From IMG/VR virus record IMGVR_UViG_2740892441_000001: DNA of 64,000 nt, one strand, 5' to 3'. Under the pieces are notes generated by a model. It ran no database searches and was not told the DNA's origin. It worked only from the letters and a program-made list of their open reading frames with translations. Position 1 is the first letter of the stretch, and each line of letters starts with the position of its first letter. Shown here in pieces: positions 15,036-59,434 of the stretch. A program made the translations under genes and the position numbers. This DNA comes from a virus (taxonomy: Duplodnaviria; Heunggongvirae; Uroviricota; Caudoviricetes).

Positions 15036-18000
15036 TCAAAGCCGACCAATCCTAACTCGAAGGACATTATTGTCATCATAAACGTCAATCCTCTGACCAT
15101 TTATAACCAATCTCCCATTGCCGCCACTATTGCCGTTGATCTCAAGCGTTCCATTTTTACCAAATCGCCATCCGGCTCGTCCGCTTACGAAGTTTGTTGA
15201 TTGCAAGTCACCTACCTTTGCATTTGTGATAGTACCATCCTTAATATACGCACCATTCATGTATGCAACGCTGTTTTCGATAACAAATGGTGTGGTGATC
15301 TTTCCGTTAACTGAGTTGACTAGACCAAATCGATCTGCTTGCACCAAAAACTGGGAAAGCCCCGTGGTGTCAATTCCAAGCGCAATACCTGCGACATATT
15401 TTTGCCCACCACTTGTTGACGTTTCCATCTTCAACGTCCACGCGGTTGAAACCTTTTTGTTAGTATCAGCAATAGCAGTTGCCTGCTCTTGAATTGTCGC
15501 TGTATTTCCATCAACTGATGCTTTTAAGGTGTCAATTCGTCCACTTAGAGCATTGTCGGCGTTTGTGCGCACAGTCGCCTCAGACGTAATCGCGGCATTA
15601 ATATCTTTGCTCGTTTGCGCCTGTAGATTAGTGATACTAGAAGCCAAAGCCGAATCAGCGTCAGTTCTGGCTTTCGTCTCTTCTGCTACAGCCGCCTTAA
15701 TATCTTTACCCGTCTGGCTCTTCAATGTGGTTATCTGTTGTGCTAAAGATTCATCAGCAGTTGCTCGGGCAATTTTTTCTTCAGATATAGCTGCACTAAT
15801 ATCGCCTTCAATTTTGGCTTGTAACGATAGTATTTCTTTTGAAAGTGCTTCATCGGCACTAGCTCGTGCCTCTTGTTCACTCACAATTGCGGCAGAAATA
15901 TCATCGTTAATCTTTGATTCAAGTTTGGTGATTCTGCTTGCAATAGCATTATCAGCATCTACACGAGCCGTTGTTTCTTCAGTGATTGAAGCTCTGATAT
16001 CCTCATTTATTTCAGCGCGAATTTCTTCCATTTTCGTAGCCATTGCAGACATATCGTCTGCAAAAGCCTTCTGAGTTGTGGTGATCTTCGCATTACTCAC
16101 CATCTGCTTGTGCTGATCTTCATCCTGACGCAAAGCAAGATCGATGTTTGTTTTAGCCAATGCCTCAATGTTTGTTGTCACTTCGGCACTGGAACGCTCA
16201 ACTTCAGCCACGGTTTTTTTCATTTCTTCAATGGTGGCTAAACTGCTATCTACAGTTGACTTCATCGCCTCGATTTCTTTCGCGTTTGCCAAGTCACCCT
16301 CAACTCGTGCTTCACGTTCCTCCGCGATTAAAGCCGATGAATTGCCAAGTGCTGCATTTGCCGCCTCAACAGCTCCAGCTACAGCTTTGCCCTGCTCTGA
16401 TACAGTTTCCTGCAACTGAATTAAAGCAGCGTTAGAGTTTTCAACTTCCTTAAGAGCGTCTTCCACCTTGCTTACAGTACTGGAAACATCCGTTTTAAGA
16501 TCGTTTTGAGCTTCTTCAAGCCGCCGATCTGTCTCTGTAAACTTGTCATCAAGCTTTTCAGACTTTCATCCATCTGTTCATAGATGGAATCCACCGCCTC
16601 CTGAGATACTTTTGAGTCGATTTCCTCAAGTAAAGCCTGGCCAAGTTCAGAAGACGTAATTTTGCCTGTCAGGAACGACAGTACATCGCGAGTTGTCGCC
16701 TCTGTCCCCAAGTTTGAGTTCGGATGACTTAACATACCTCGCTTGTTCGACGCTCGAACCCAGTAATACCACGTTTCGCTATCCCCAAGACCAGCATGTG
16801 TAAAGGTGGTGCTTGCAGACTCTGCGATCAGTTTCGCTGTATCCAGATTGTTGGTCTGGGATGCGTAAACATTAATGTGATCAAGGTCTACCGAATCTGG
16901 ATTAACCCAATTCAGTATCACATTACGATAGTCTCCAACGGCCGTTAATGACGTTGGGGCATCTGGCGGTGTCATTGTGCCCAGCACCTGATAAACGGTA
17001 CTGATAATCTCTGTTTTTTTACCGTTGAATGAAACCGCATACAACTGGAAGTCGTAGCGTCCATTCTCCGCAACATTAACGATTTCGTATTGCTCTTCGG
17101 TTACACGCGCCGATTGCCAGTTCGATACATTGTTTTCATCAGAACGTCGCCAACTGATCCAATACTCTGGAGATTTCCCTTCCCATGTTGCAGTCAGTTT
17201 TACTGACAGGTTGCCAGGGCTTGAGAGATAAGTCCCTTCGGTGATTTGCAAATTAGACGGCTTGGAGTAAGTCGGGTCCAATACCGTCGTATTCTGCGGG
17301 ATAAGCGTTGCACCATTGTCGATTGCCTCATATTTAGACGGATTGTTCTCAACAGCGGTGATGTCAAAGCTACCCGGCGTTTCCCCCTGCGCGATGTTAA
17401 CGATGCGAACGCGCATAGGTTCGAGATCTGGTTCTGTAATTGTCCAGACACCGTTCAAAACAGGCGTTTCCGCTGACGACAGGGCTTTTGAAAACGTAAC
17501 CTTTGTTATGTTTTCGCCAGTTTCAAGAACATCGCGTTCAACGATTTTGCCTTCCTGATTCAGTATTCGAATAAAGCAGCCGCCTTTGGCTAACGACACA
17601 GGCGCATCGAGTGTGATGCTGTTTTTGGTAAACTCCACAATTCGACCGGAGTTGCGCTTTCCTGCGCGATATTTGTTCTGAATCAGAACGGTTTCACCAG
17701 GCATCAGGAATGACGCATCTAAGCCGGCAGTAAATGTAATTACATCCGACTCCATTCTGGCGGTATATAAAAGCCACAAACCAACTCGGTGAGCCTGCCC
17801 TCGGCTTGTACAGCCAAATGCTACGACTTCTGTCTTACGCTCACCATAACGGCGCATTGCGTCCTGATCTTCAACGTACTCGATGTTTTGCTTATAACCG
17901 TCCTCCTTGTTGTTGTAGGTTACGAGCGCAACGGATGGGCGATCTTTACGCGCAGAACCTTTATAGGTAAACAATCCATCTTTGACGTTAGAGTTGGTAA

Positions 18001-48508: not shown

Positions 48509-48820
48509 TCAGGCTATTGCCATCACTGATGCTCTCTGAATCTCTTGCTGGGCCACGCGGTTAACTTCCATCAAAGCCAGTTCGAGCTGATGTTCCGGCC
48601 ACATTCTTTGAAACGCCATCCAGCCTTTTCCACGCTGGCGGCGAACATTCATTACATAACGAGTAAAGGTGTTTTTATCGAAAGACACCGCTGTTTCACG
48701 GAACAGACGAATAGAGGTTCCATTGGCAACGATGTCCAGCAAAGTTAATTGAGCAACCAGCGCAGGCTTCTCTTTTCTCTTCTGGTCTTTGTCCAGACCA
48801 AGAACCAATGATTTTTTCAT
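48509..48820 (-). CDS. hypothetical protein
   Basis: Start moved to MKKSLVLG (GGAG SD). Confidence 0.4.
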   Translation of the reverse strand: MKKSLVLGLDKDQKRKEKPALVAQLTLLDIVANGTSIRLFRETAVSFDKNTFTRYVMNVRRQRGKGWMAFQRMWPEHQLELALMEVNRVAQQEIQRASVMAIA

Positions 48821-52271: not shown

Positions 52272-54305
52272 TTACTTAACCTGGTGGCCAGGTTTAGCAC
52301 CAGCATCCGGGCTTAACAGGAAGATGTCTTTCCCGCCGGGGCCAGCAGCCATCACCATGCCTTCGGAGATACCGAAACGCATTTTACGCGGAGCCAGGTT
52401 AGCCACCATAATGGTGTGACGGCCAATCAGTGCCTGTGGGTCTGGATAAGCGGAACGGATGCCTGAGAAGACATTGCGTTTTTCACCGCCGAGATCCAGC
52501 GTCAGGCGCAGCAGTTTGTCAGAACCTTCAACAAAGTCTGCGTTTTCGATCAGCGCCACGCGCAGGTCAACTTTGGCAAAGTCGTCAAAGGTGATGGTTT
52601 CCTGAATCGGGTCGTCTGCCAGCGGGCCAGTAACTGGCGCGGCAGTAGCTTTCACTTCTTCTTTAGACGCTTCCACCAATGCTTCCACCTGTTTCATGTC
52701 GATACGGTTATACAGTGCTTTGAACGGATTCACTTTATGGCCCAGCAGCGGTTGCTGGATACCATCCCAGGTCAGTTCTGTATTCAGGAATGCTTCTGCA
52801 CGTTCAGTCAGTTTCGGCAGTACCGGCTTCAGGTACGTCATCAGCACGCGGAACAGGTTAATGCCCATAGAGCAAATCGCCTGCAGATCGGCATCGCGTC
52901 CTTCCTGCTTCGCCACCACCCACGGAGCCTGTTCATCGACATAGCGGTTAGCCAGGTCAGCCAATGCCATGATTTCACGGATAGCTTTACCAAATTCGCG
53001 GCTTTCCCATGCTTCGCCAATCACTTCAGCGGCATCAGTAAAGGTTTTGTACAGTTGCGAGTCAGCCAGTTCGCTTGCCAGCACGCCGTCAAAACGCTTG
53101 TTGATAAAGCCTGCATTACGGGAGGCCAGGTTAACCACTTTGTTCACGATATCGGCATTCACGCGCTGAACGAAATCCTCCAGGTTGAGATCGATATCAT
53201 CAATGCGCGAAGAGAGTTTCGCAGTGTAGTAGTAACGCAGGCTGTCGGCGTCAAAATGATTCATCCAGGTGCTGGCTTTAATAAAGGTGCCGCGAGACTT
53301 GGACATCTTCGCGCCGTTCACCGTCACATAGCCGTGAACAAACAGGTTGGTCGGCTTGCGGAAGTTGCTGCCTTCCAGCATGGCAGGCCAGAACAGGCTG
53401 TGGAAGTAAACGATATCTTTACCGATGAAGTGGTACAGCTCGGCGGTGGAGTCTTTCTTCCAGTATTCATCGAAGCTGGTAGTGTCGCCGCGCTTGTCGC
53501 ACAGATTCTTGAAGGAACCCATGTAGCCAATCGGTGCGTCCAGCCAGACGTAGAAATATTTACCCGGCGCGTTCGGAATTTCAAAACCGAAGTAAGGTGC
53601 GTCGCGGGAGATATCCCACTGTTGCAGACCAGATTCAAACCACTCCTGCATTTTGTTTGCCACCTGCTCCTGCAACGCACCGCTGCGGGTCCATGCCTGC
53701 AACATTTCGCTGAAAGAGGGCAGATCAAAGAAGAAGTGTTCAGAATCACGCATTACCGGCGTAGCGCCAGAAACTACCGATTTCGGCTCAATCAGTTCAG
53801 TCGGGCTGTAGGTCGCGCCGCAAACTTCACAGTTATCGCCGTATTGATCTGGCGCTTTACATTTCGGACAGGTGCCTTTCACAAAACGATCCGGCAGGAA
53901 CATGCCTTTTTCCGGGTCGTACAACTGAGAGATAGTGCGGTTTTTAATAAAACCGTTCTCTTTCAGGCGAGTATAGATAAGCTCAGACAGCTGGCGGTTC
54001 TCTTCGCTGTGCGTCGAGTGATAGTTGTCATAGCTGATGTTAAAGCCTGCGAAATCAGTCTGGTGTTCCTGGCTCATTTCGCCAATCATCTGTTCCGGTG
54101 TGATACCAAGCTGCTGTGCTTTCAGCATGATCGGCGTACCGTGGGCATCGTCGGCGCAGATGAAGTTGACCTCGTGGCCGCGCATTCGCTGGTAACGGAC
54201 CCAGACATCAGCCTGGATGTGCTCCAGCATATGGCCGAGGTGGATTGAGCCGTTAGCGTACGGCAGCGCGCACGTCACCAGAATTTTCTTCGCGACTTGG
54301 GTCAT
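52272..54305 (-). CDS. metG: methionine--tRNA ligase
   Basis: 677-aa protein from [25 protein letters not shown] (HLGH, KMSKS motifs, C-terminal tRNA-binding domain); matches E. coli MetG as I recall it; the 43-codon N-terminal extension in the ORF track is rejected. Confidence 0.95.
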
Positions 54306-54462
54306 AGTAGGCATTACTTCTTTGTAGTGAAAAGGGGCTTGATAGTAACAAAATGGCCTTATGTCTGCCATGTGATAACAGCATTTCTCATAAATGATTA
54401 AATGTCGTAGCTGGAGTACACTACAAGGCGACAATTGCGCAAATTAAAATAAAGGAGACGGG

Positions 54463-55563
54463 ATGAGCGAGTCCAAATCGCCGGATGCCCTGAGAGCAAT
54501 GGTAGCCGGTACGCTGGCTAATTTTCAGCACCCAACCCTGAAGCACAACCTGACTACGCTTAAAGCGTTACACCATGTTGCGTTGATGGATGACACACTG
54601 CATGTCGAACTAATCATGCCTTTCGTGTGGAATAAGCCTTTTGAAGACCTGAAAGAGCAATGTAGTGGTGATCTGCTCCGTATCACTGGCGCAAAGGCTA
54701 TCGACTGGAAGCTGTCGTACAACATTGCCACGCTTAAGCGCGTCAAAAACCAACCAGGCATTAATGGCGTTAAGAACATCATCGCCGTCAGCTCAGGCAA
54801 GGGCGGTGTAGGCAAATCGTCCACAGCAGTAAACTTGGCACTGGCGTTGGCTGCTGAAGGTGCGAAAGTTGGTATTTTGGATGCCGATATCTACGGTCCA
54901 TCAATTCCAACCATGCTGGGTGCGGAAAACCAACGTCCAACCTCACCGGACGGTACTCACATGGCACCTATCATGTCTCATGGCCTGGCAACCAACTCTA
55001 TTGGTTATCTGGTCACCGACGACAATGCAATGGTGTGGCGTGGACCGATGGCCAGCAAGGCGTTAATGCAGATGTTGCAGGAAACTCTATGGCCTGATCT
55101 GGACTATCTCGTTCTCGATATGCCGCCGGGCACTGGTGATATTCAATTGACGCTGGCGCAGAACATTCCTGTAACTGGTGCTGTTGTGGTAACTACGCCG
55201 CAAGATATCGCGCTGATCGATGCGAAGAAAGGCATTGTGATGTTCGAAAAAGTCGAAGTGCCGGTACTGGGTATCGTCGAAAACATGAGTGTGCATATTT
55301 GCAGTAACTGCGGTCATCACGAGCCAATTTTTGGCACCGGTGGCGCACAGAAGCTGGCCGAGAAATACAACACGCAGTTGTTAGGCCAAATGCCACTTCA
55401 TATCTCTCTTCGTGAAGATCTGGATAACGGAACACCAACCGTTATTAGTCGTCCAGATAGCGAATTTACGGCTATTTATCGTGACCTCGCAGATCGCGTT
55501 GCTGCCCAAATGTATTGGCAAGGTGAAGTAATACCTGGCGAAATCGCATTCCGCGCAGTGTGA
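54463..55563 (+). CDS. apbC: Fe-S cluster carrier ATPase ApbC/Mrp
   Basis: 366-aa ORF; deviant Walker A SGKGGVGKSS; CxxC motif; divergent from metG as in enterobacterial chromosomes. Confidence 0.95.
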   Translation: MSESKSPDALRAMVAGTLANFQHPTLKHNLTTLKALHHVALMDDTLHVELIMPFVWNKPFEDLKEQCSGDLLRITGAKAIDWKLSYNIATLKRVKNQPGINGVKNIIAVSSGKGGVGKSSTAVNLALALAAEGAKVGILDADIYGPSIPTMLGAENQRPTSPDGTHMAPIMSHGLATNSIGYLVTDDNAMVWRGPMASKALMQMLQETLWPDLDYLVLDMPPGTGDIQLTLAQNIPVTGAVVVTTPQDIALIDAKKGIVMFEKVEVPVLGIVENMSVHICSNCGHHEPIFGTGGAQKLAEKYNTQLLGQMPLHISLREDLDNGTPTVISRPDSEFTAIYRDLADRVAAQMYWQGEVIPGEIAFRAV

Positions 55564-55564
55564 T

Positions 55565-55592
55565 AAAAAGGTGGTGCAATGCACCACCTAAA
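55565..55592 (-). terminator. hairpin shared by the convergent apbC and umuD'-like genes
   Basis: aggtggtgcaatgcaccacct, flanked by an A/T run. Confidence 0.45.
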
Positions 55593-55600
55593 CAGTTCTC

Positions 55601-55990
55601 CTACATCACAGGACAATCATCAAACTCGCCACTTCTTGCGTCGTTGATAATGTGAGTGATCACACCAAACACGGCATTGCTGCCCGTGCATCCATCATCA
55701 TCCTTTGGCAATGCTTCCTTCTTACCAGTTCTTAAATCCTCCAGATGCTGACGTGGATACTTCCGGTATCTTTTTACGCGATATTCCCCATCCAGAGCAC
55801 ATACAAGAAGAGATCCATCAACAGGAGTGAGTGAGGAATCGACCACCAGCAATGCACCCTGCAATATTCCCTCACGATGATGACTATCAGCCGCCCTCAT
55901 GAAGTAGGTCGCTGAAGGATGTCTAATTATCTGCTGATCAAGAGAAATACGGCTCTCTGCATAATCCGCCGCAGGAGATGGGAAGCCCAT
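55601..55990 (-). CDS. UmuD'-like (HumD-type) S24 peptidase-fold protein
   Basis: 129-aa ORF starting MGFPSPAADY, i.e. at the position of the UmuD Cys24-Gly25 cleavage site; Ser/Lys dyad context retained (DSH, VKR); GAGGTG SD. Confidence 0.8.
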   Translation of the reverse strand: MGFPSPAADYAESRISLDQQIIRHPSATYFMRAADSHHREGILQGALLVVDSSLTPVDGSLLVCALDGEYRVKRYRKYPRQHLEDLRTGKKEALPKDDDGCTGSNAVFGVITHIINDARSGEFDDCPVM

Positions 55991-56008
55991 AGCGTTTTCA
56001 CCTCAAAA

Positions 56009-56028
56009 TACTGTTTATATATACAGTA
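56009..56028. promoter_or_regulatory. LexA (SOS) box
   Basis: TACTGTTTATATATACAGTA about 20 nt upstream of the umuD'-like start. Confidence 0.75.
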
Positions 56029-56160
56029 TACATGAAAGAAACCCACTTAGTGCAACCGATCGAGACTCTTCACCAAACAAAAATATTTTTCTCAAATAAG
56101 AAAAGGCAGAAAACAAATTGTTTAAGGCCACTAGTTGTGGCCTTAATGGGGGAGGGGTGC

Positions 56161-56685
56161 TTATTGGCTATGGCTAAAAATCAAATGAGACACTTCATGT
56201 GGTTGTAGCTCGTCAAGATCCGGGGCCACAAAACCTTTTCCGAAAGACTTCACAAGTGATTCACCAGCCGCATCATTGTCACCTATTACGCGAAAGTCAT
56301 ACGGCAGCATTGCCAGTTGACGACGTAATCCTGCTGAGAAAGTCGAACCTAACAGCGCCCACGAATTTCCGCCCGCGTTGTGCACTGCTGCACTTTTAAA
56401 AATCGACTCAGTTATCCATATCGGTCCATCTTTTAAAGGAAGATAGGTTCCCCATAGTAGCTGTCTGCCGTGCGCTCGTGTGAAATACCGGGCCATCTTC
56501 GGATTGCTATGCTGCTTAGGAGCGCCTGGTCTGTATGTCTGATACCCGGCCAACATCCCATCAAACCTGTATAGAGGGAACGTAACAACTCCTTCGCTTT
56601 CATCGATCCACTGTCTATATGGATGCACATCATGGCGGTAGTTGCGAGTTAGCAAATGAGCTTCCAGCTTTCCAAATTTGGTCAT
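56161..56685 (-). CDS. hypothetical protein
   Basis: Start moved to MTKFGK (GAGGGA SD). Confidence 0.4.
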   Translation of the reverse strand: MTKFGKLEAHLLTRNYRHDVHPYRQWIDESEGVVTFPLYRFDGMLAGYQTYRPGAPKQHSNPKMARYFTRAHGRQLLWGTYLPLKDGPIWITESIFKSAAVHNAGGNSWALLGSTFSAGLRRQLAMLPYDFRVIGDNDAAGESLVKSFGKGFVAPDLDELQPHEVSHLIFSHSQ

Positions 56686-56698
56686 AACTTCGCATCCC

Positions 56699-57553
56699 TC
56701 ATAACACTTCCCATTTATCACCATATTTCTCCATAGCTCTTAGCCAGTAAACATGGCCACTAGGCATAGTGATGTGAGGCTCGCCAAACTCTTCTCCATG
56801 CACATCAAAGATGTCCCCAACAGAGAATTGGGGGATTTCTACGCCGTTTTCACCTATATGCGTAATTCGTATACGTTTCGGTTGAAATTGTCCACCTTTG
56901 AGCGAGTTGTTCACTGCTCTGGCAATTTTCTCCCGCAATTGCTGCGTTACGTGGTACTGAACCGCAATATCCCGCAACTCGTTCACCAGTTCTCTAATCT
57001 GGTGATCTTTAAGCTCATTATTTGGGTGATGGGCAACAACTCTGGTTAATTCACCCTTGTCTTTTGCTCTTACGTATGCAGCTCTTGTGCATTCGACCCA
57101 TGTATTACCGCCTACATTAACTTCGTAGATTAGGCTGGACTTATCTGTCAATTCGGAACAAATACGGGCCGTGGTCTGGCAACTAGAGCATTCGCAGTTA
57201 TCGCGGAAACCGTGGTCTACTGGCTGCGGTTTCACATCATCAACTTTTTCTACCCTATTGGAATTTAAATACTTCGAAGCCTTGCTATGCCAATCGCTGG
57301 TTTTAGGATCTTGTCCATCCATCAAACGCCAGGCTTCAGCGATTAACTCATAACTAGTGACTGTAGCTTCCTGCGCATCACCAATAAGTCGTGTAATCTC
57401 TCTTTCAAGCCGACCGCCTAGCTCTGTTTTAGTGCAATGTTCTGACCAATCGCCAGCCTCAAGCAGCGCGAGAATGCTTAAAATATCGTCCAATAGAACG
57501 GTAGTATTATCGACTTCCTTCTGAAACTCACCGGCTACTGATTTATGCATCAT
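56699..57553 (-). CDS. hypothetical protein
   Basis: 284-aa ORF with cysteine cluster CECSSC in the middle. Confidence 0.4.
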   Translation of the reverse strand: MMHKSVAGEFQKEVDNTTVLLDDILSILALLEAGDWSEHCTKTELGGRLEREITRLIGDAQEATVTSYELIAEAWRLMDGQDPKTSDWHSKASKYLNSNRVEKVDDVKPQPVDHGFRDNCECSSCQTTARICSELTDKSSLIYEVNVGGNTWVECTRAAYVRAKDKGELTRVVAHHPNNELKDHQIRELVNELRDIAVQYHVTQQLREKIARAVNNSLKGGQFQPKRIRITHIGENGVEIPQFSVGDIFDVHGEEFGEPHITMPSGHVYWLRAMEKYGDKWEVL

Positions 57554-57852
57554 TCGTCATCCTCATCCGAGTCATCCTCATCACAGGATGAGAGTAGTGG
57601 GTTAGTCATTCGCCCTACTTGAGTGGCGTAGCCACGCCGACAGAGATTGCGCAGCACACTGTATATTTCGAACATCTCGGTTCGTTCATCGCCAACATCA
57701 AGCTCAGATGCTATAGCGTGGCATTCAGTCGCGAGAGCCGATATTTTCTGAAATAACTCTGCTTTATTCACTCTTAGACTCCTGCGGAGGTTCTGGTAGC
57801 GGCATCCAGTGAGTTGCTTGCTCAATACCATTACCCGGCTTAATCGTTGCAT
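57550..57852 (-). CDS. hypothetical protein
   Basis: 100-aa ORF with acidic C-terminal tail. Confidence 0.3.
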   Translation of the reverse strand: MQRLSRVMVLSKQLTGCRYQNLRRSLRVNKAELFQKISALATECHAIASELDVGDERTEMFEIYSVLRNLCRRGYATQVGRMTNPLLSSCDEDDSDEDDE

Positions 57853-58498
57853 CTCCGCGCCGAAAGGTGCTTCCGGTATAGCGTGCGGAGCATATTAGCG
57901 GTTCAACCAGAGAGCTATCGAAATTCACCGAAATAAGCACGTTCTGGCCCTTTTCAGGCATTCGCTCACTACAGCTTATCCAACCATCCGGAGTTACCGG
58001 ATTGTTGCCAGCCTCATACGCGACCCTTATCCAGTGCATAAGCATTTCAGTACTTACACATCCACAATCAACATCAATTTTGTCATGCTGCTGTTCCAGC
58101 CATTGCTCAAAAGTTAACTTGTAAGTTTGGCTTACAGGTTTGGCTTCCAGTTCTGCTATGTGATTTTTGGCTGATTCCAACTCAATCGACAATTTTTCCA
58201 ACTGCTCTTTATGATTTTTATATTCCTGATATGCGTGCCAAGACTGACCTTTGCGCACACTATCAGTGATATCAGCAACCTGCTCTGGTGTTAGCGTGGT
58301 CAGTGGCTGTGCTGGAAAAATCATCACTTGCCCGGCATCCCAATCAAAACCCGCCTGAATTGACTGAACCTCAACTGATGGTGTTGAACCGATGCGACCA
58401 GGCGAATGAACAACGATCGTTACATCCATATCGCGACGATGGCTGTGGTTGTTGGACAAAATACGATTCACCGACTCAGAAAATTTGGAAAATTTCAT
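57764..58498 (-). CDS. DUF551-like prophage protein
   Basis: Start moved to MKFSKF (AGAGGGG SD); C-terminal [13 protein letters not shown] segment. Confidence 0.45.
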
Positions 58499-58821
58499 GC
58501 TGACCCCTCTTTCTCTCCCCGGATAATTCTGTTGCACACATCCACACACTCGTCGCAGATGAAAACGGCGTCCCCAGCAATTAACTTTTTGACGGCGTAC
58601 TGGGATTTGTTGCAGAAGCTGCAACAAAGTGTTCGCCTGGCTGATAAGGATGGAGCGCCAGATGTCAGCCGCTCCATATCGTTCTTGCGACGCAATATCA
58701 CACGGCTGAACTCAACCAGTTTCTCCGGGGATATCTCCTCCTCCTCCGTAGCGAGCGTCTCTAGTCGTTCGAGTATGTGGAAGGCTTTTTCCTGGGTAAT
58801 TGCAGAATGCGATGTGGTCAT
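58495..58821 (-). CDS. ClpX N-terminal zinc-binding-domain-like protein
   Basis: Start moved to MTTSHS (GGAGAG SD); C-terminal [28 protein letters not shown] resembles the ClpX C4 zinc ribbon. Confidence 0.5.
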
Positions 58822-58822
58822 C

Positions 58823-59434
58823 TCACTCTCCTTTGATGCGAATGCCAGGGGCGCGTGGCACATTAACTTCCACGATGCGCACTGTTGGTTTGTACATCTC
58901 AATCGCTGTCAGCCAGTCAGCTCCTGTCATGCGCTTTTCCGCATCGCCATTAGTCCACTGAACCGGTACACCAATAGCCTTCATCGCGATTTCTATTTCC
59001 CCGGCAATGGCGCTTTTTCCGCAACCAGTAAAACCAGATACAACGACCAGAACTTCACCTTTGGCTGGTTTTATTTCCCGTGCTTCCAGTTCTGCAATGC
59101 GCTTACTTCCATCCGAGATAACGCCCTCGTAATACTCACGCTGCTCGTTGAGTTTTGATTTTGCCAACTCCAGTTGTTTTGTTAGTTCTGCAATACGACA
59201 AACATCGTTGATACGCGTTTCCTCTAATGCGTTGCTCTCATCCAGTAGCGCCAGCACGGTTTCTGGTCCGGCCAGAAATTTGAAGGCGTTGAGGGCATCA
59301 ATATCAACACCGCTATCTTTAAGTTCCTGTTCGCTTATCAGATCATCATCAACTGGCAACATTAACAGGCGTTCCATTGCCGGAATTGCACGCTCTGCCG
59401 CCTCACGCAGTGCCTGATAGTCAATCTTGCTCAC
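58823..59434 (-). CDS. Ea22-like coiled-coil protein with P-loop
   Basis: 203-aa ORF; N-terminal coiled coil; [12 protein letters not shown]alker A-like motif. Confidence 0.4.

What the first reader, a model, noticed from the sequence alone, without database searches (positions are those of the whole stretch)
55565..56040. SOS-controlled gene encoding a pre-processed UmuD' (HumD-type) protein without UmuC
The ORF starts at MGFPSPAADY, exactly where UmuD is cleaved to UmuD', so the product would be the active form without RecA-dependent processing. A near-consensus LexA box sits about 20 nt upstream. No umuC-like gene follows; the gene is convergent with apbC. Phage P1 humD is a known precedent; here it lies next to a host housekeeping locus. 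Relative to UmuD there is a ~25-residue insertion (QHLEDLRTGKKEALPKDDDGCTGSN).
Basis: partly seen in the sequence, partly recalled or inferred. Interest (0 to 1): 0.6.

Follow-up and report, generated by a model that had tools for sequence, protein, structure and literature searches.

The report
HumD gene on an SSU5-like phage-plasmid
This is an ordinary copy of the already characterised phage gene humD, a ready-made UmuD' subunit for the host's error-prone DNA polymerase V that is switched on by DNA damage, and it sits on an SSU5-type phage-plasmid, not in a host chromosome.

Summary
The ORF is real: window 55601..55990, minus strand, 129 aa. It starts M-G-F-P-S-P, where G2 aligns with UmuD Gly25, the first residue of UmuD'. 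In-frame stops 5 and 9 codons upstream exclude a longer N-terminus. An exact LexA box, TACTGT-N8-ACAGTA, lies at 56009..56028, 18 nt before the ATG (0.02 expected by chance). The window has no umuC.

The protein is a full-length member of NCBIfam NF051876, "HumD family" (219.8 bits, cutoff 120). It is 100% identical to CYRAN_98 of Escherichia phage Cyrano (pLF82) and 91.5-93% identical to HumD of P1-type phages (91.5% in the P1 record AF234173). HumD is published as a functional UmuD' homologue.

- metG and apbC are cargo of a ~110-kb SSU5-like phage-plasmid, not the host locus.
- There is no ~25-residue insertion. That segment aligns with UmuD 105-125, with a net gain of 4 residues.
- The Ser/Lys dyad is not securely retained. 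Profile-profile alignment puts His37, not Ser36, at UmuD Ser60.

The real family-specific addition is a conserved acidic C-terminal tail (…SGEFDDCPVM) that resembles the SSB C-terminus. This is an unexplored lead.

Verdict: already known, low interest.

The parts
55601..55990 (-). humD coding sequence (129 aa plus stop); HumD-family, pre-truncated UmuD'-like protein
   Evidence: ORF list. NCBIfam NF051876 HumD equivalog, 219.8 bits against a cutoff of 120, covering 1-129 of 129. Pfam Peptidase_S24. PHROG 811 UmuD-like. 100% identical to Cyrano CYRAN_98 and 91.5-93% identical to HumD of P1-type phages.
55999..56004 (-). Shine-Dalgarno sequence GAGGTG, 8 nt before the ATG
   Evidence: Read directly from the sequence. 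Identical in P1.
56009..56028 (.). LexA operator (SOS box); TACTGTATATATAAACAGTA on the gene strand, 19 of 20 matches to the palindromic consensus
   Evidence: Exact match to TACTGT-N8-ACAGTA, 0.02 expected by chance. The homologous site in the P1 record is annotated as the LexA binding site of lxr and humD. Equivalent boxes lie upstream of the N15, phiKO2, pAEv1818 and yong1 homologues and of E. coli umuD.
56025..56055 (-). Candidate sigma-70 promoter: -35 TTGCAC (56055..56050), 19-nt spacer, -10 TATACT (56030..56025) overlapping the LexA box. This is an inference.
   Evidence: Read from the sequence. TTGCAC is conserved at the very edge of the homology with P1. The consensus scanner allows only 16-18 nt spacers and did not call it.
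55569..55589 (.). Hairpin terminator between the convergent stop codons of apbC and humD
   Evidence: 9-bp stem, 6 G-C pairs, T-run on the minus strand. It is not homologous to P1, where homology stops at the humD stop codon.
56122..56146 (-). Terminator-like hairpin after the upstream primase-fragment ORF; it separates humD from upstream transcription
   Evidence: 10-bp stem.
55602..56058 (-). Extent of the humD cassette shared with P1-type phages (promoter region, LexA box and ORF)
   Evidence: blastn: 458 nt at 85% identity to P1 variant MH422554. Pairwise alignment with P1 AF234173 begins about 50 nt upstream of the LexA box and ends at the stop codon.

Best explanation
The locus is a self-contained, SOS-regulated humD cassette carried as an accessory gene by an SSU5-like phage-plasmid.

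Proposed mechanism:
1. In undamaged cells, host LexA sits on the near-perfect operator that overlaps the promoter and keeps the gene off.
2. After DNA damage, RecA* drives LexA self-cleavage and humD is transcribed as a monocistronic unit bounded by two hairpin terminators.
3. The 129-aa product is made directly in the UmuD' form. It has no N-terminal arm and no Cys-Gly cleavage site.
4. It therefore skips the slow RecA*-dependent cleavage step. It dimerises and pairs with the host-encoded UmuC to give a Pol V-like translesion polymerase.
5. This would promote lesion bypass, survival and mutagenesis of host and element DNA at the time when the phage-plasmid itself is being induced.

What is shown and what is inferred:
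- Shown here: the sequence features, family membership, orthology to P1 humD, absence of umuC, and the phage-plasmid context.
- Inferred from P1 HumD: dimerisation, binding to UmuC and RecA filaments, and complementation of UmuD'.
- Inferred from the operator sequence alone: regulation by LexA.

The protein is most likely a pseudo-peptidase. The G-D-S-M signature is degenerate (A-D-S-H-H) and the nucleophile position is probably His37.
For: - Start at the UmuD' N-terminus, with stops upstream.
- HumD equivalog hit above cutoff over its full length.
- 91.5-93% amino-acid identity to HumD of P1-type phages and 100% to Cyrano CYRAN_98.
- DNA homology to P1 covers the promoter edge, LexA box, SD and ORF, and stops at the stop codon.
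- The exact LexA box is far beyond chance. The P1 record annotates the equivalent site as LexA-bound.
- LexA boxes recur upstream of stand-alone homologues in N15, phiKO2, pAEv1818 and yong1.
- No umuC in 64 kb.
- 106 of the 120 closest cluster representatives start MGFPSP. Most of the longer calls are start-codon over-extensions whose N-termini (for example MDIQYLYCV… and MDRVVCDNIP…) show no likeness to the UmuD arm and which keep the internal Met before GFPSP. Three of the 120 are extended at the C-terminus or are fragments.
- Literature: P1 HumD is described as an already-activated, shorter version of UmuD (PMC7092418, citing McLenigan et al. 1999). humD is described as a LexA-regulated SOS gene (PMC9603915).
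- Cyrano is an SSU5-like phage-plasmid with about 5.5 copies per cell, induced 39-fold by ciprofloxacin (PMC9928086).
Against: - Nothing was measured for this copy.
- I recall, and could not re-read, that McLenigan et al. reported HumD to be poorly expressed, with complementation strong only from a high-copy vector. The physiological benefit to the phage is unknown.
- humD is non-essential for P1 lytic growth (PMC10695390).
- No promoter passed the consensus scanner. The candidate promoter has a 19-nt spacer.
- The nearly invariant C-terminal tail, absent from UmuD, hints at a function beyond simple replacement of UmuD'.
Confidence: 0.82

Rival explanations
1. HumD mainly modulates the host SOS state for the benefit of the element, and does not serve as a polymerase subunit. 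It could sequester full-length UmuD or UmuC to cancel the UmuD2C replication checkpoint. It could bind RecA* filaments, or SSB-interacting proteins through its acidic C-terminal tail, and so tune repressor cleavage, recombination or replication restart during induction.
For: - The tail …[ED]-F-D-D-x-P-x-x-COOH is nearly invariant in 120 close representatives and recognisable down to about 40% identity. It is absent from UmuD.
- It resembles the E. coli SSB tip …DFDDDIPF. Variants end in …EFDDTPF or …FHDNLPF.
- In phiKO2 and HK140 the homologue lies next to a dinI gene, which encodes a RecA-filament modulator. In phiKO2 the two genes diverge from a shared LexA site.
- The catalytic dyad is relaxed in the clade.
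Against: - By published account, P1 HumD complements UmuD' in mutagenesis and binds UmuC (cited).
- The tail resemblance is an 8-residue motif with no statistical support and no binding data.
- The two roles are not mutually exclusive.
Confidence: 0.2
2. It is an active S24 serine peptidase that cleaves another protein in trans, for example host UmuD, LexA or a phage repressor.
For: - Pfam Peptidase_S24 hit.
- Simple pairwise alignment places Ser36 and Lys73 opposite UmuD Ser60 and Lys97.
- Lys73 is present in 118 of 121 close homologues.
Against: - Profile-profile alignment, and intermediates that keep Gly58 (…AGDYPEA…, …AAGAHWRA…), put His37 at the Ser60 position.
- Even on the other register the position alternates Ser and Thr (76 and 43).
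- G-D-S-M is invariant or nearly so in full-length UmuDs (G58 in 34 of 34, S60 in 31 of 34) but not conserved in pre-truncated representatives.
Confidence: 0.04
3. It is a decaying remnant of a umuDC operon with no function.
For: No umuC partner. A degenerate protease motif.
Against: - The reading frame is intact with conserved length (58 of the 120 closest representatives are 129 aa and 100 of 120 are 125-131 aa). SD and LexA box are conserved.
- 561 clusters at 90% identity occur across many enterobacterial phages, plasmids and prophages.
- The truncation point is identical in homologues only 44-49% identical.
Confidence: 0.02

Closest known systems
Bacteriophage P1 HumD (AAQ14181, 129 aa; McLenigan et al. 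1999; Lobocka et al. 2004)
   Same: - Same length and same M-G-F-P-S-P start.
- 91.5% amino-acid identity to the AF234173 protein; 92.2-93% to other P1-type phages.
- Same AADSHHRE motif and same C-terminal tail (…SGEFDDCPVI/M).
- Same SD, and a LexA box at the same distance from the start.
- No adjacent umuC.
   Different: - The carrier element differs: an SSU5-like siphovirus phage-plasmid, not a P1 myovirus phage-plasmid.
- The flanks differ. P1 has divergent lxr upstream and phd-doc downstream. Here a primase-fragment ORF lies upstream, co-directional with humD, and apbC lies downstream, convergent with it.
N15 gp26, phiKO2 gp23, and the UmuD-like proteins of HK140 and HK639 (stand-alone UmuD'-like genes of linear phage-plasmids and lambdoid phages)
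   Same: - 64-71% identity.
- Pre-truncated start and the same C-terminal tail.
- LexA box upstream in N15 and phiKO2.
- Located in accessory ('moron') positions.
   Different: - The position equivalent to window Ser36 is Thr.
- The gene is often paired with dinI.
- HK140 has no LexA box within 120 nt upstream.
E. coli UmuD / UmuD' (PDB 1umu, 1ay9, 1i4v, 8gmt)
   Same: - Same S24 C-terminal fold family.
- 42% identity over UmuD 25-139.
- The LexA box lies at a similar distance from the start.
   Different: - No residues 1-24 and no Cys24-Gly25 cleavage site.
- One-residue deletion in the active-site loop, and G-D-S-M is replaced by D-S-H-H.
- Scores below the PRK10276 cutoff (87 against 110).
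- 11-residue acidic C-terminal tail.
- No umuC in the operon.
Plasmid and ICE UmuD homologues MucA, ImpA, RumA, SamA, and phage-borne full umuDC (for example Cronobacter phage ENT39118)
   Same: Mobile-element-borne, LexA-regulated accessory subunits of Pol V-type polymerases (PMC7092418; PMC11541004).
   Different: Those encode full-length, cleavable proteins with an intact G-D-S-M motif, and they sit in an operon with a umuC-type gene.

Membership tests
HumD family (NCBIfam NF051876, equivalog) | Whole-protein score above the curated cutoff over the full model | tested here: met
   219.8 bits against a cutoff of 120; residues 1-129 match model positions 1-129 of 129.
HumD family (NCBIfam NF051876, equivalog) | Translation starts at the position of the UmuD Cys24/Gly25 cleavage site, with no N-terminal arm | tested here: met
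   G2 aligns with UmuD G25. In-frame TGA stops lie 5 and 9 codons upstream.
HumD family (NCBIfam NF051876, equivalog) | Stand-alone gene with no cognate umuC | tested here: met
   The downstream neighbour is convergent apbC. tblastn with E. coli UmuC finds nothing in 64 kb.
HumD family (NCBIfam NF051876, equivalog) | LexA operator in the regulatory region | tested here: met
   Exact TACTGT-N8-ACAGTA at 56009..56028. It is homologous to the annotated P1 LexA site. Binding was not measured.
HumD family (NCBIfam NF051876, equivalog) | Functionally replaces UmuD' (dimerises, binds UmuC and RecA*, restores SOS mutagenesis) | not testable with these tools
   Known only for P1 HumD from the literature (cited). 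The primary paper, PMC94175, is not held.
UmuD, autoproteolytic Pol V subunit (NCBIfam NF007621 / PRK10276) | Score above the curated cutoff | tested here: not met
   87 bits against a cutoff of 110.
UmuD, autoproteolytic Pol V subunit (NCBIfam NF007621 / PRK10276) | N-terminal arm with a Cys/Ala-Gly self-cleavage site | tested here: not met
   Absent. The ORF begins at the residue after the cleavage site.
UmuD, autoproteolytic Pol V subunit (NCBIfam NF007621 / PRK10276) | Catalytic Ser (G-D-S-M) and Lys dyad | tested here: inconclusive
   - The Lys is present (K73 = K97).
- The Ser depends on where a one-residue gap is placed. phmmer against UmuD gives S36 = S60.
- The profile against LexA and hhalign of diverse representatives give H37 = S60.
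- G58 and M61 are lost on either register.
LexA repressor (TIGR00498) | N-terminal winged-helix DNA-binding domain plus a cleavable S24 domain; score above cutoff | tested here: not met
   27.2 bits against a cutoff of 110.95. Only the S24 part matches, and there is no N-terminal domain.
SSU5-like phage-plasmids (carrier element) | Collinear DNA similarity to SSU5, Cyrano and pLF82-type ~110-kb elements, including tail and replication genes | tested here: met
   Window 1-25000 matches Cyrano at 97.2% (76% covered) and SSU5 at 79.5% (76% covered). Window 50000-64000 matches plasmids of about 107-115 kb at 96-98%.

The most novel reading that the evidence does not exclude
HumD-family proteins are not just UmuD' made without processing. 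They may be S24 pseudo-peptidases in which the nucleophile Ser is replaced (His37 here). They have also acquired a strongly conserved acidic C-terminal short linear motif, …[ED]-F-D-D-x-P-Φ-Φ-COOH. In some members it ends …EFDDTPF or …FHDNLPF. This motif would mimic the SSB C-terminal tip (…DFDDDIPF). It could let phage-made HumD, alone or as HumD2-UmuC, dock onto or compete for the SSB-interaction hub (chi, RecQ, ExoI, PriA, Pol IV and others) at stalled forks.
Probability: 0.12. Interest if true: 0.55.

Novelty: already known. Interest (0 to 1): 0.15.

Why it matters
As found, it matters little. The gene belongs to a curated, experimentally characterised family. An identical protein is already deposited for phage Cyrano (pLF82).

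Three modest points of value:
- It documents that the P1 humD cassette (promoter edge, LexA box and ORF) has been exchanged between unrelated phage-plasmid lineages, P1-like and SSU5-like.
- Pre-truncated UmuD'-like proteins as a group have relaxed the catalytic dyad, which fits their not needing self-cleavage.
- The conserved SSB-like C-terminal tail is a testable clue to why temperate phages carry a lone UmuD' gene, a question I recall the 1999 HumD paper leaving open.

Tried and rejected
- **Longer ORF with a UmuD N-terminus:** rejected because of in-frame stops. The 148-223-aa database homologues are over-called starts. Their N-terminal extensions show no likeness to the UmuD arm, and almost all keep the internal Met before GFPSP.
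- **umuC elsewhere in the window:** none.
- **Upstream 187-aa ORF as P1 Lxr:** no similarity (blastp E = 6). It is a primase/Toprim fragment.
- **AlphaFold2 model from 101 homologues:** unusable, with mean pLDDT 43 and pTM 0.31, because the alignment is shallow (all sequences at least 67% identical). No fold search was run.
- **Other CTGT-N8-ACAG sites (16666, 48691):** their spacers are G+C-rich and they are not TACTGT/ACAGTA boxes, so they are probably chance.
- **Consensus promoter scan:** found nothing on the gene strand. The promoter given in the parts list was read by hand.
- **Primary papers:** McLenigan 1999 (PMC94175) and Lobocka 2004 (PMC523184) are not held. What I say of their content beyond citing papers is from memory.
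- **SSB homologue in the window:** none.

Full report
**Observation**

The reported interval brackets a real transcription unit on the minus strand. The ORF runs from 55990 to 55601 and encodes 129 aa, MGFPSPAADY…DDCPVM. Translating further upstream in frame gives …CILYI*TVF*GENA-M. TGA stops therefore lie 5 and 9 codons before the ATG, with no ATG, GTG or TTG between the nearer stop and the start, so no longer N-terminus can be made.

A GAGGTG Shine-Dalgarno sequence lies 8 nt before the ATG. Eighteen nucleotides upstream of the ATG lies TACTGTTTATATATACAGTA (56009..56028). This is the only exact match to TACTGT-N8-ACAGTA in the 64-kb window. Dinucleotide-preserving shuffles give a mean of 0.02 such sites. 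On the gene strand it reads TACTGTATATATAAACAGTA, which is 19 of 20 matches to the palindromic LexA consensus.

Hairpin terminators lie just after the gene (55569..55589, shared with convergent apbC) and just before its regulatory region (56122..56146). tblastn with E. coli UmuC finds nothing in the window (best E = 7).

**What the protein is**

- Pfam gives Peptidase_S24 (E = 1.6e-9).
- NCBIfam gives the equivalog model NF051876, "HumD family translesion DNA polymerase". The score is 219.8 bits against a cutoff of 120, matching end to end (1-129 of 129).
- The UmuD model PRK10276 scores below its cutoff (87 against 110), and LexA scores far below.
- PHROGs gives "UmuD-like protein".
- Against solved structures the best hits are UmuD' and UmuD (1umu, 1i4v, 8gmt; E = 7e-23). 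Residue G2 lies opposite UmuD Gly25, the first residue of UmuD'.
- tblastn against phage genomes gives 100% identity to CYRAN_98 of Escherichia phage Cyrano. It gives 91.5-93% to HumD of P1, P7, D6, SJ46 and RCS47, 68-71% to N15 gp26 and phiKO2 gp23, and 60-66% to lambdoid HK140 and HK639.
- The P1 protein has the same length, the same AADSHHRE motif and the same tail.
- A search of 5.8 billion proteins finds 561 clusters at E ≤ 1e-5. Many are already named "HumD family translesion DNA polymerase" by NCBI or UniRef.

The gene is therefore a member of a known, curated family.

**Context**

They are not.

- The junction apbC-humD-upstream ORF is found at 94-96% identity on E. coli plasmids of about 107-113 kb.
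- Window 50000-64000 matches E. coli and Shigella plasmids of about 107-115 kb at 96-98%. All of them are annotated with metG and apbC.
- Window 1-25000 carries tail, helicase and ligase genes. These are 97% identical to phage Cyrano and 79.5% identical to Salmonella phage SSU5.
- Cyrano is pLF82 of the adherent-invasive E. coli LF82. It is an SSU5-like phage-plasmid with about 5.5 copies per cell, it produces virions, and it is induced 39-fold by ciprofloxacin (PMC9928086).
- The metG-apbC block is one collinear 3,298-nt piece, 88.4% identical to K-12 mrp-metG. The proteins are 94.8% and 98.4% identical. It is a captured chromosomal segment carried as cargo.

**The cassette**

DNA homology with P1 starts about 50 nt upstream of the LexA box, at a conserved TTGCAC. 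It runs through the box, the SD and the ORF, and ends at the stop codon. Against one P1 variant this is 458 nt at 85% identity.

The P1 record annotates the equivalent 20-mer as the "LexA binding site in the regulatory region of lxr and humD". The flanks differ. P1 has divergent lxr upstream and phd-doc downstream. Here a primase-fragment ORF lies upstream and apbC lies downstream. humD therefore behaves as a small mobile "moron" with its own SOS-controlled promoter, exchanged between unrelated phage-plasmid lineages.

Other stand-alone homologues occupy similar accessory positions, after tail-fibre genes and before par or integrase genes. Most have a LexA box 34-64 nt upstream. In phiKO2 and HK140 the gene lies next to dinI. 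By contrast, Cronobacter phage ENT39118 carries a full-length umuD plus umuC.

**The alleged insertion**

HMMER and hhalign align residues 81-106 (QHLEDLRTGKKEALPKDDDGCTGSNA) with UmuD 105-125. The window protein has only four extra residues there. The segment is a diverged counterpart, not a 25-residue insertion. What UmuD really lacks is the last 11 residues, …ARSGEFDDCPVM.

**The dyad**

- Pairwise phmmer puts Ser36 and Lys73 opposite UmuD Ser60 and Lys97. This depends on where a one-residue deletion is placed.
- The HumD profile aligned to LexA puts His37 opposite the LexA nucleophile.
- I used the all-against-one HMMER search of 1.84 billion representatives (3,416 hits at E ≤ 1e-3) to collect 17 complete pre-truncated and 33 complete full-length representatives.
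- Every pre-truncated protein has an 8-residue spacer where full-length proteins have 9 (xxGDSMxxA). Intermediates that keep the Gly (AAGAHWRA, AEGSYIRF, ASGAYPSV, SAGDYPEA, ATGQALAI) show that the residue after G-x is the Ser60 equivalent.
- hhalign of the two alignments (probability 100%, E = 1e-49) gives D35 = G58, S36 = D59, H37 = S60 and H38 = M61.
- In the full-length set, G58 is present in 34 of 34, S60 in 31 of 34 and K97 in 31 of 34. In the pre-truncated set the S60-equivalent column reads S4, H3, A3, C2, Y2 and others. The K97-equivalent column reads R8, K4, C3, V2, L1.
- Among the 120 closest HumD clusters, position 36 is Ser in 76 and Thr in 43, His37 is present in 108 of 121, and Lys73 in 118 of 121.

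The clade as a whole has relaxed the catalytic apparatus, as expected for proteins that no longer cut themselves. For this protein, "dyad retained" cannot be claimed.

This does not undermine the UmuD' reading. P1 HumD has the same motif and is cited as the already-activated functional homologue. From my own knowledge, engineered UmuD' does not need Ser60 for mutagenesis.

**Mechanism**

The best-supported model has these steps:
1. LexA represses the cassette.
2. DNA damage derepresses it.
3. HumD is made directly in the active UmuD' form.
4. HumD dimerises and partners host UmuC to give Pol V-type translesion synthesis, without the delay imposed by RecA*-mediated UmuD cleavage.
5. This happens when the element is itself SOS-induced.

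The regulatory and architectural steps are read from the sequence. The biochemical steps are carried over from P1 HumD (McLenigan et al. 1999, cited). My recollection of its abstract is that HumD forms dimers, binds UmuC and RecA filaments, and complements recA430 and ΔumuDC strains best from a high-copy vector. humD is dispensable for P1 lytic growth.

In unstressed LF82 transcriptomes the neighbouring CYRAN_99 (apbC) is listed as an expressed moron. CYRAN_98 is not listed, which is weakly consistent with repression.

**A lead noticed on the way**

The C-terminal tail is nearly invariant among close homologues: E122, F123, D124, D125, C126, P127, V128, M/I129. It is recognisable in representatives only 40-52% identical: GEFDDVPVM, GEFDDTPF, EEFDAEPFLI, FEFDERPCI, DEFDEIPCI, FEFHDNLPF, SEWDDLPVI.

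It resembles the E. coli SSB C-terminal tip PPMDFDDDIPF, which is the docking peptide for many genome-maintenance proteins. Pol V is reported to interact physically with SSB (PMC3401449). The motif occurs once in all six reading frames of the window, and the window has no SSB gene.

This is a resemblance, not a test. I rate the SSB-tail-mimic reading at about 0.12.

**What failed**

- The AlphaFold2 model from the shallow alignment was unusable (mean pLDDT 43), so no structural comparison was made.
- The two primary papers are not in the library.

**Verdict**

The gene is an ordinary humD orthologue on an SSU5-like phage-plasmid: already known, low interest.

Noticed in passing
window 52272..55563: A divergent metG-apbC(mrp) pair, with intact MetRS (677 aa) and ApbC, is carried as cargo by the phage-plasmid. 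It is one collinear 3,298-nt block, 88.4% identical to K-12 mrp-metG including the intergenic region (proteins 98.4% and 94.8%). This gives the host a second, multicopy methionyl-tRNA synthetase whose benefit is unknown. In LF82 the apbC copy (CYRAN_99) is expressed 9-fold above prophage background.
   Followed up: partly
window 55601..55636 (last 11 codons of humD and the stop codon): A family-specific, nearly invariant acidic C-terminal tail, …ARSGEFDDCPVM, is absent from UmuD. It resembles the SSB C-terminal tip …MDFDDDIPF. Distant members end …EFDDTPF or …FHDNLPF.
   Followed up: partly
window 55870..55893 (codons 33-40, AADSHHRE): The active-site loop is one residue shorter than in UmuD, and G-D-S-M is lost. 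Profile-profile alignment places His37 at the nucleophile position. Across pre-truncated UmuD'-like representatives, neither the Ser nor the Lys column is conserved, unlike in full-length UmuDs.
   Followed up: yes
window 56161..56724 (-): A 187-aa ORF annotated elsewhere as a 'toprim domain-containing protein'. It matches only the middle of PHROG 849 DNA primase (positions 142-333 of 435) and has no Pfam hit, so it looks like a primase fragment. It is unrelated to P1 Lxr.
   Followed up: partly
window 56087..56373: A further 287 nt, covering the upstream terminator and the 3' end of the primase-fragment ORF, are 90.6% identical to a P1 variant (MH422554). There the segment lies beyond lxr-upf93.6, so about 1.1 kb present in P1 is replaced by 28 nt here. 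This indicates recombination between P1-like and SSU5-like elements beyond the humD cassette.
   Followed up: partly
window 16666..16681 and 48691..48706: Two more CTGT-N8-ACAG sites. Their spacers are G+C-rich and they lack the TA flanks. Three sites in total against 0.83 expected. They are probably not LexA operators.
   Followed up: no
window 56699..60238 (-): A run of small minus-strand ORFs typical of lambdoid 'ea' regions. It includes a DUF551 protein (57764..58627) and homologues of Cyrano's Ead/Ea22-, Eaa- and Eae-like genes. This region is variable among the related plasmids.
   Followed up: no
L005 (phiKO2) 1181..1884 and L006 (HK140) 910..1890: In phiKO2 the humD homologue is divergently paired with a dinI homologue around a shared LexA site. 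In HK140 a dinI homologue also lies upstream on the opposite strand, with a small ORF in between and no LexA box within 120 nt of the humD homologue. This suggests a recurring phage SOS-modulation module.
   Followed up: no
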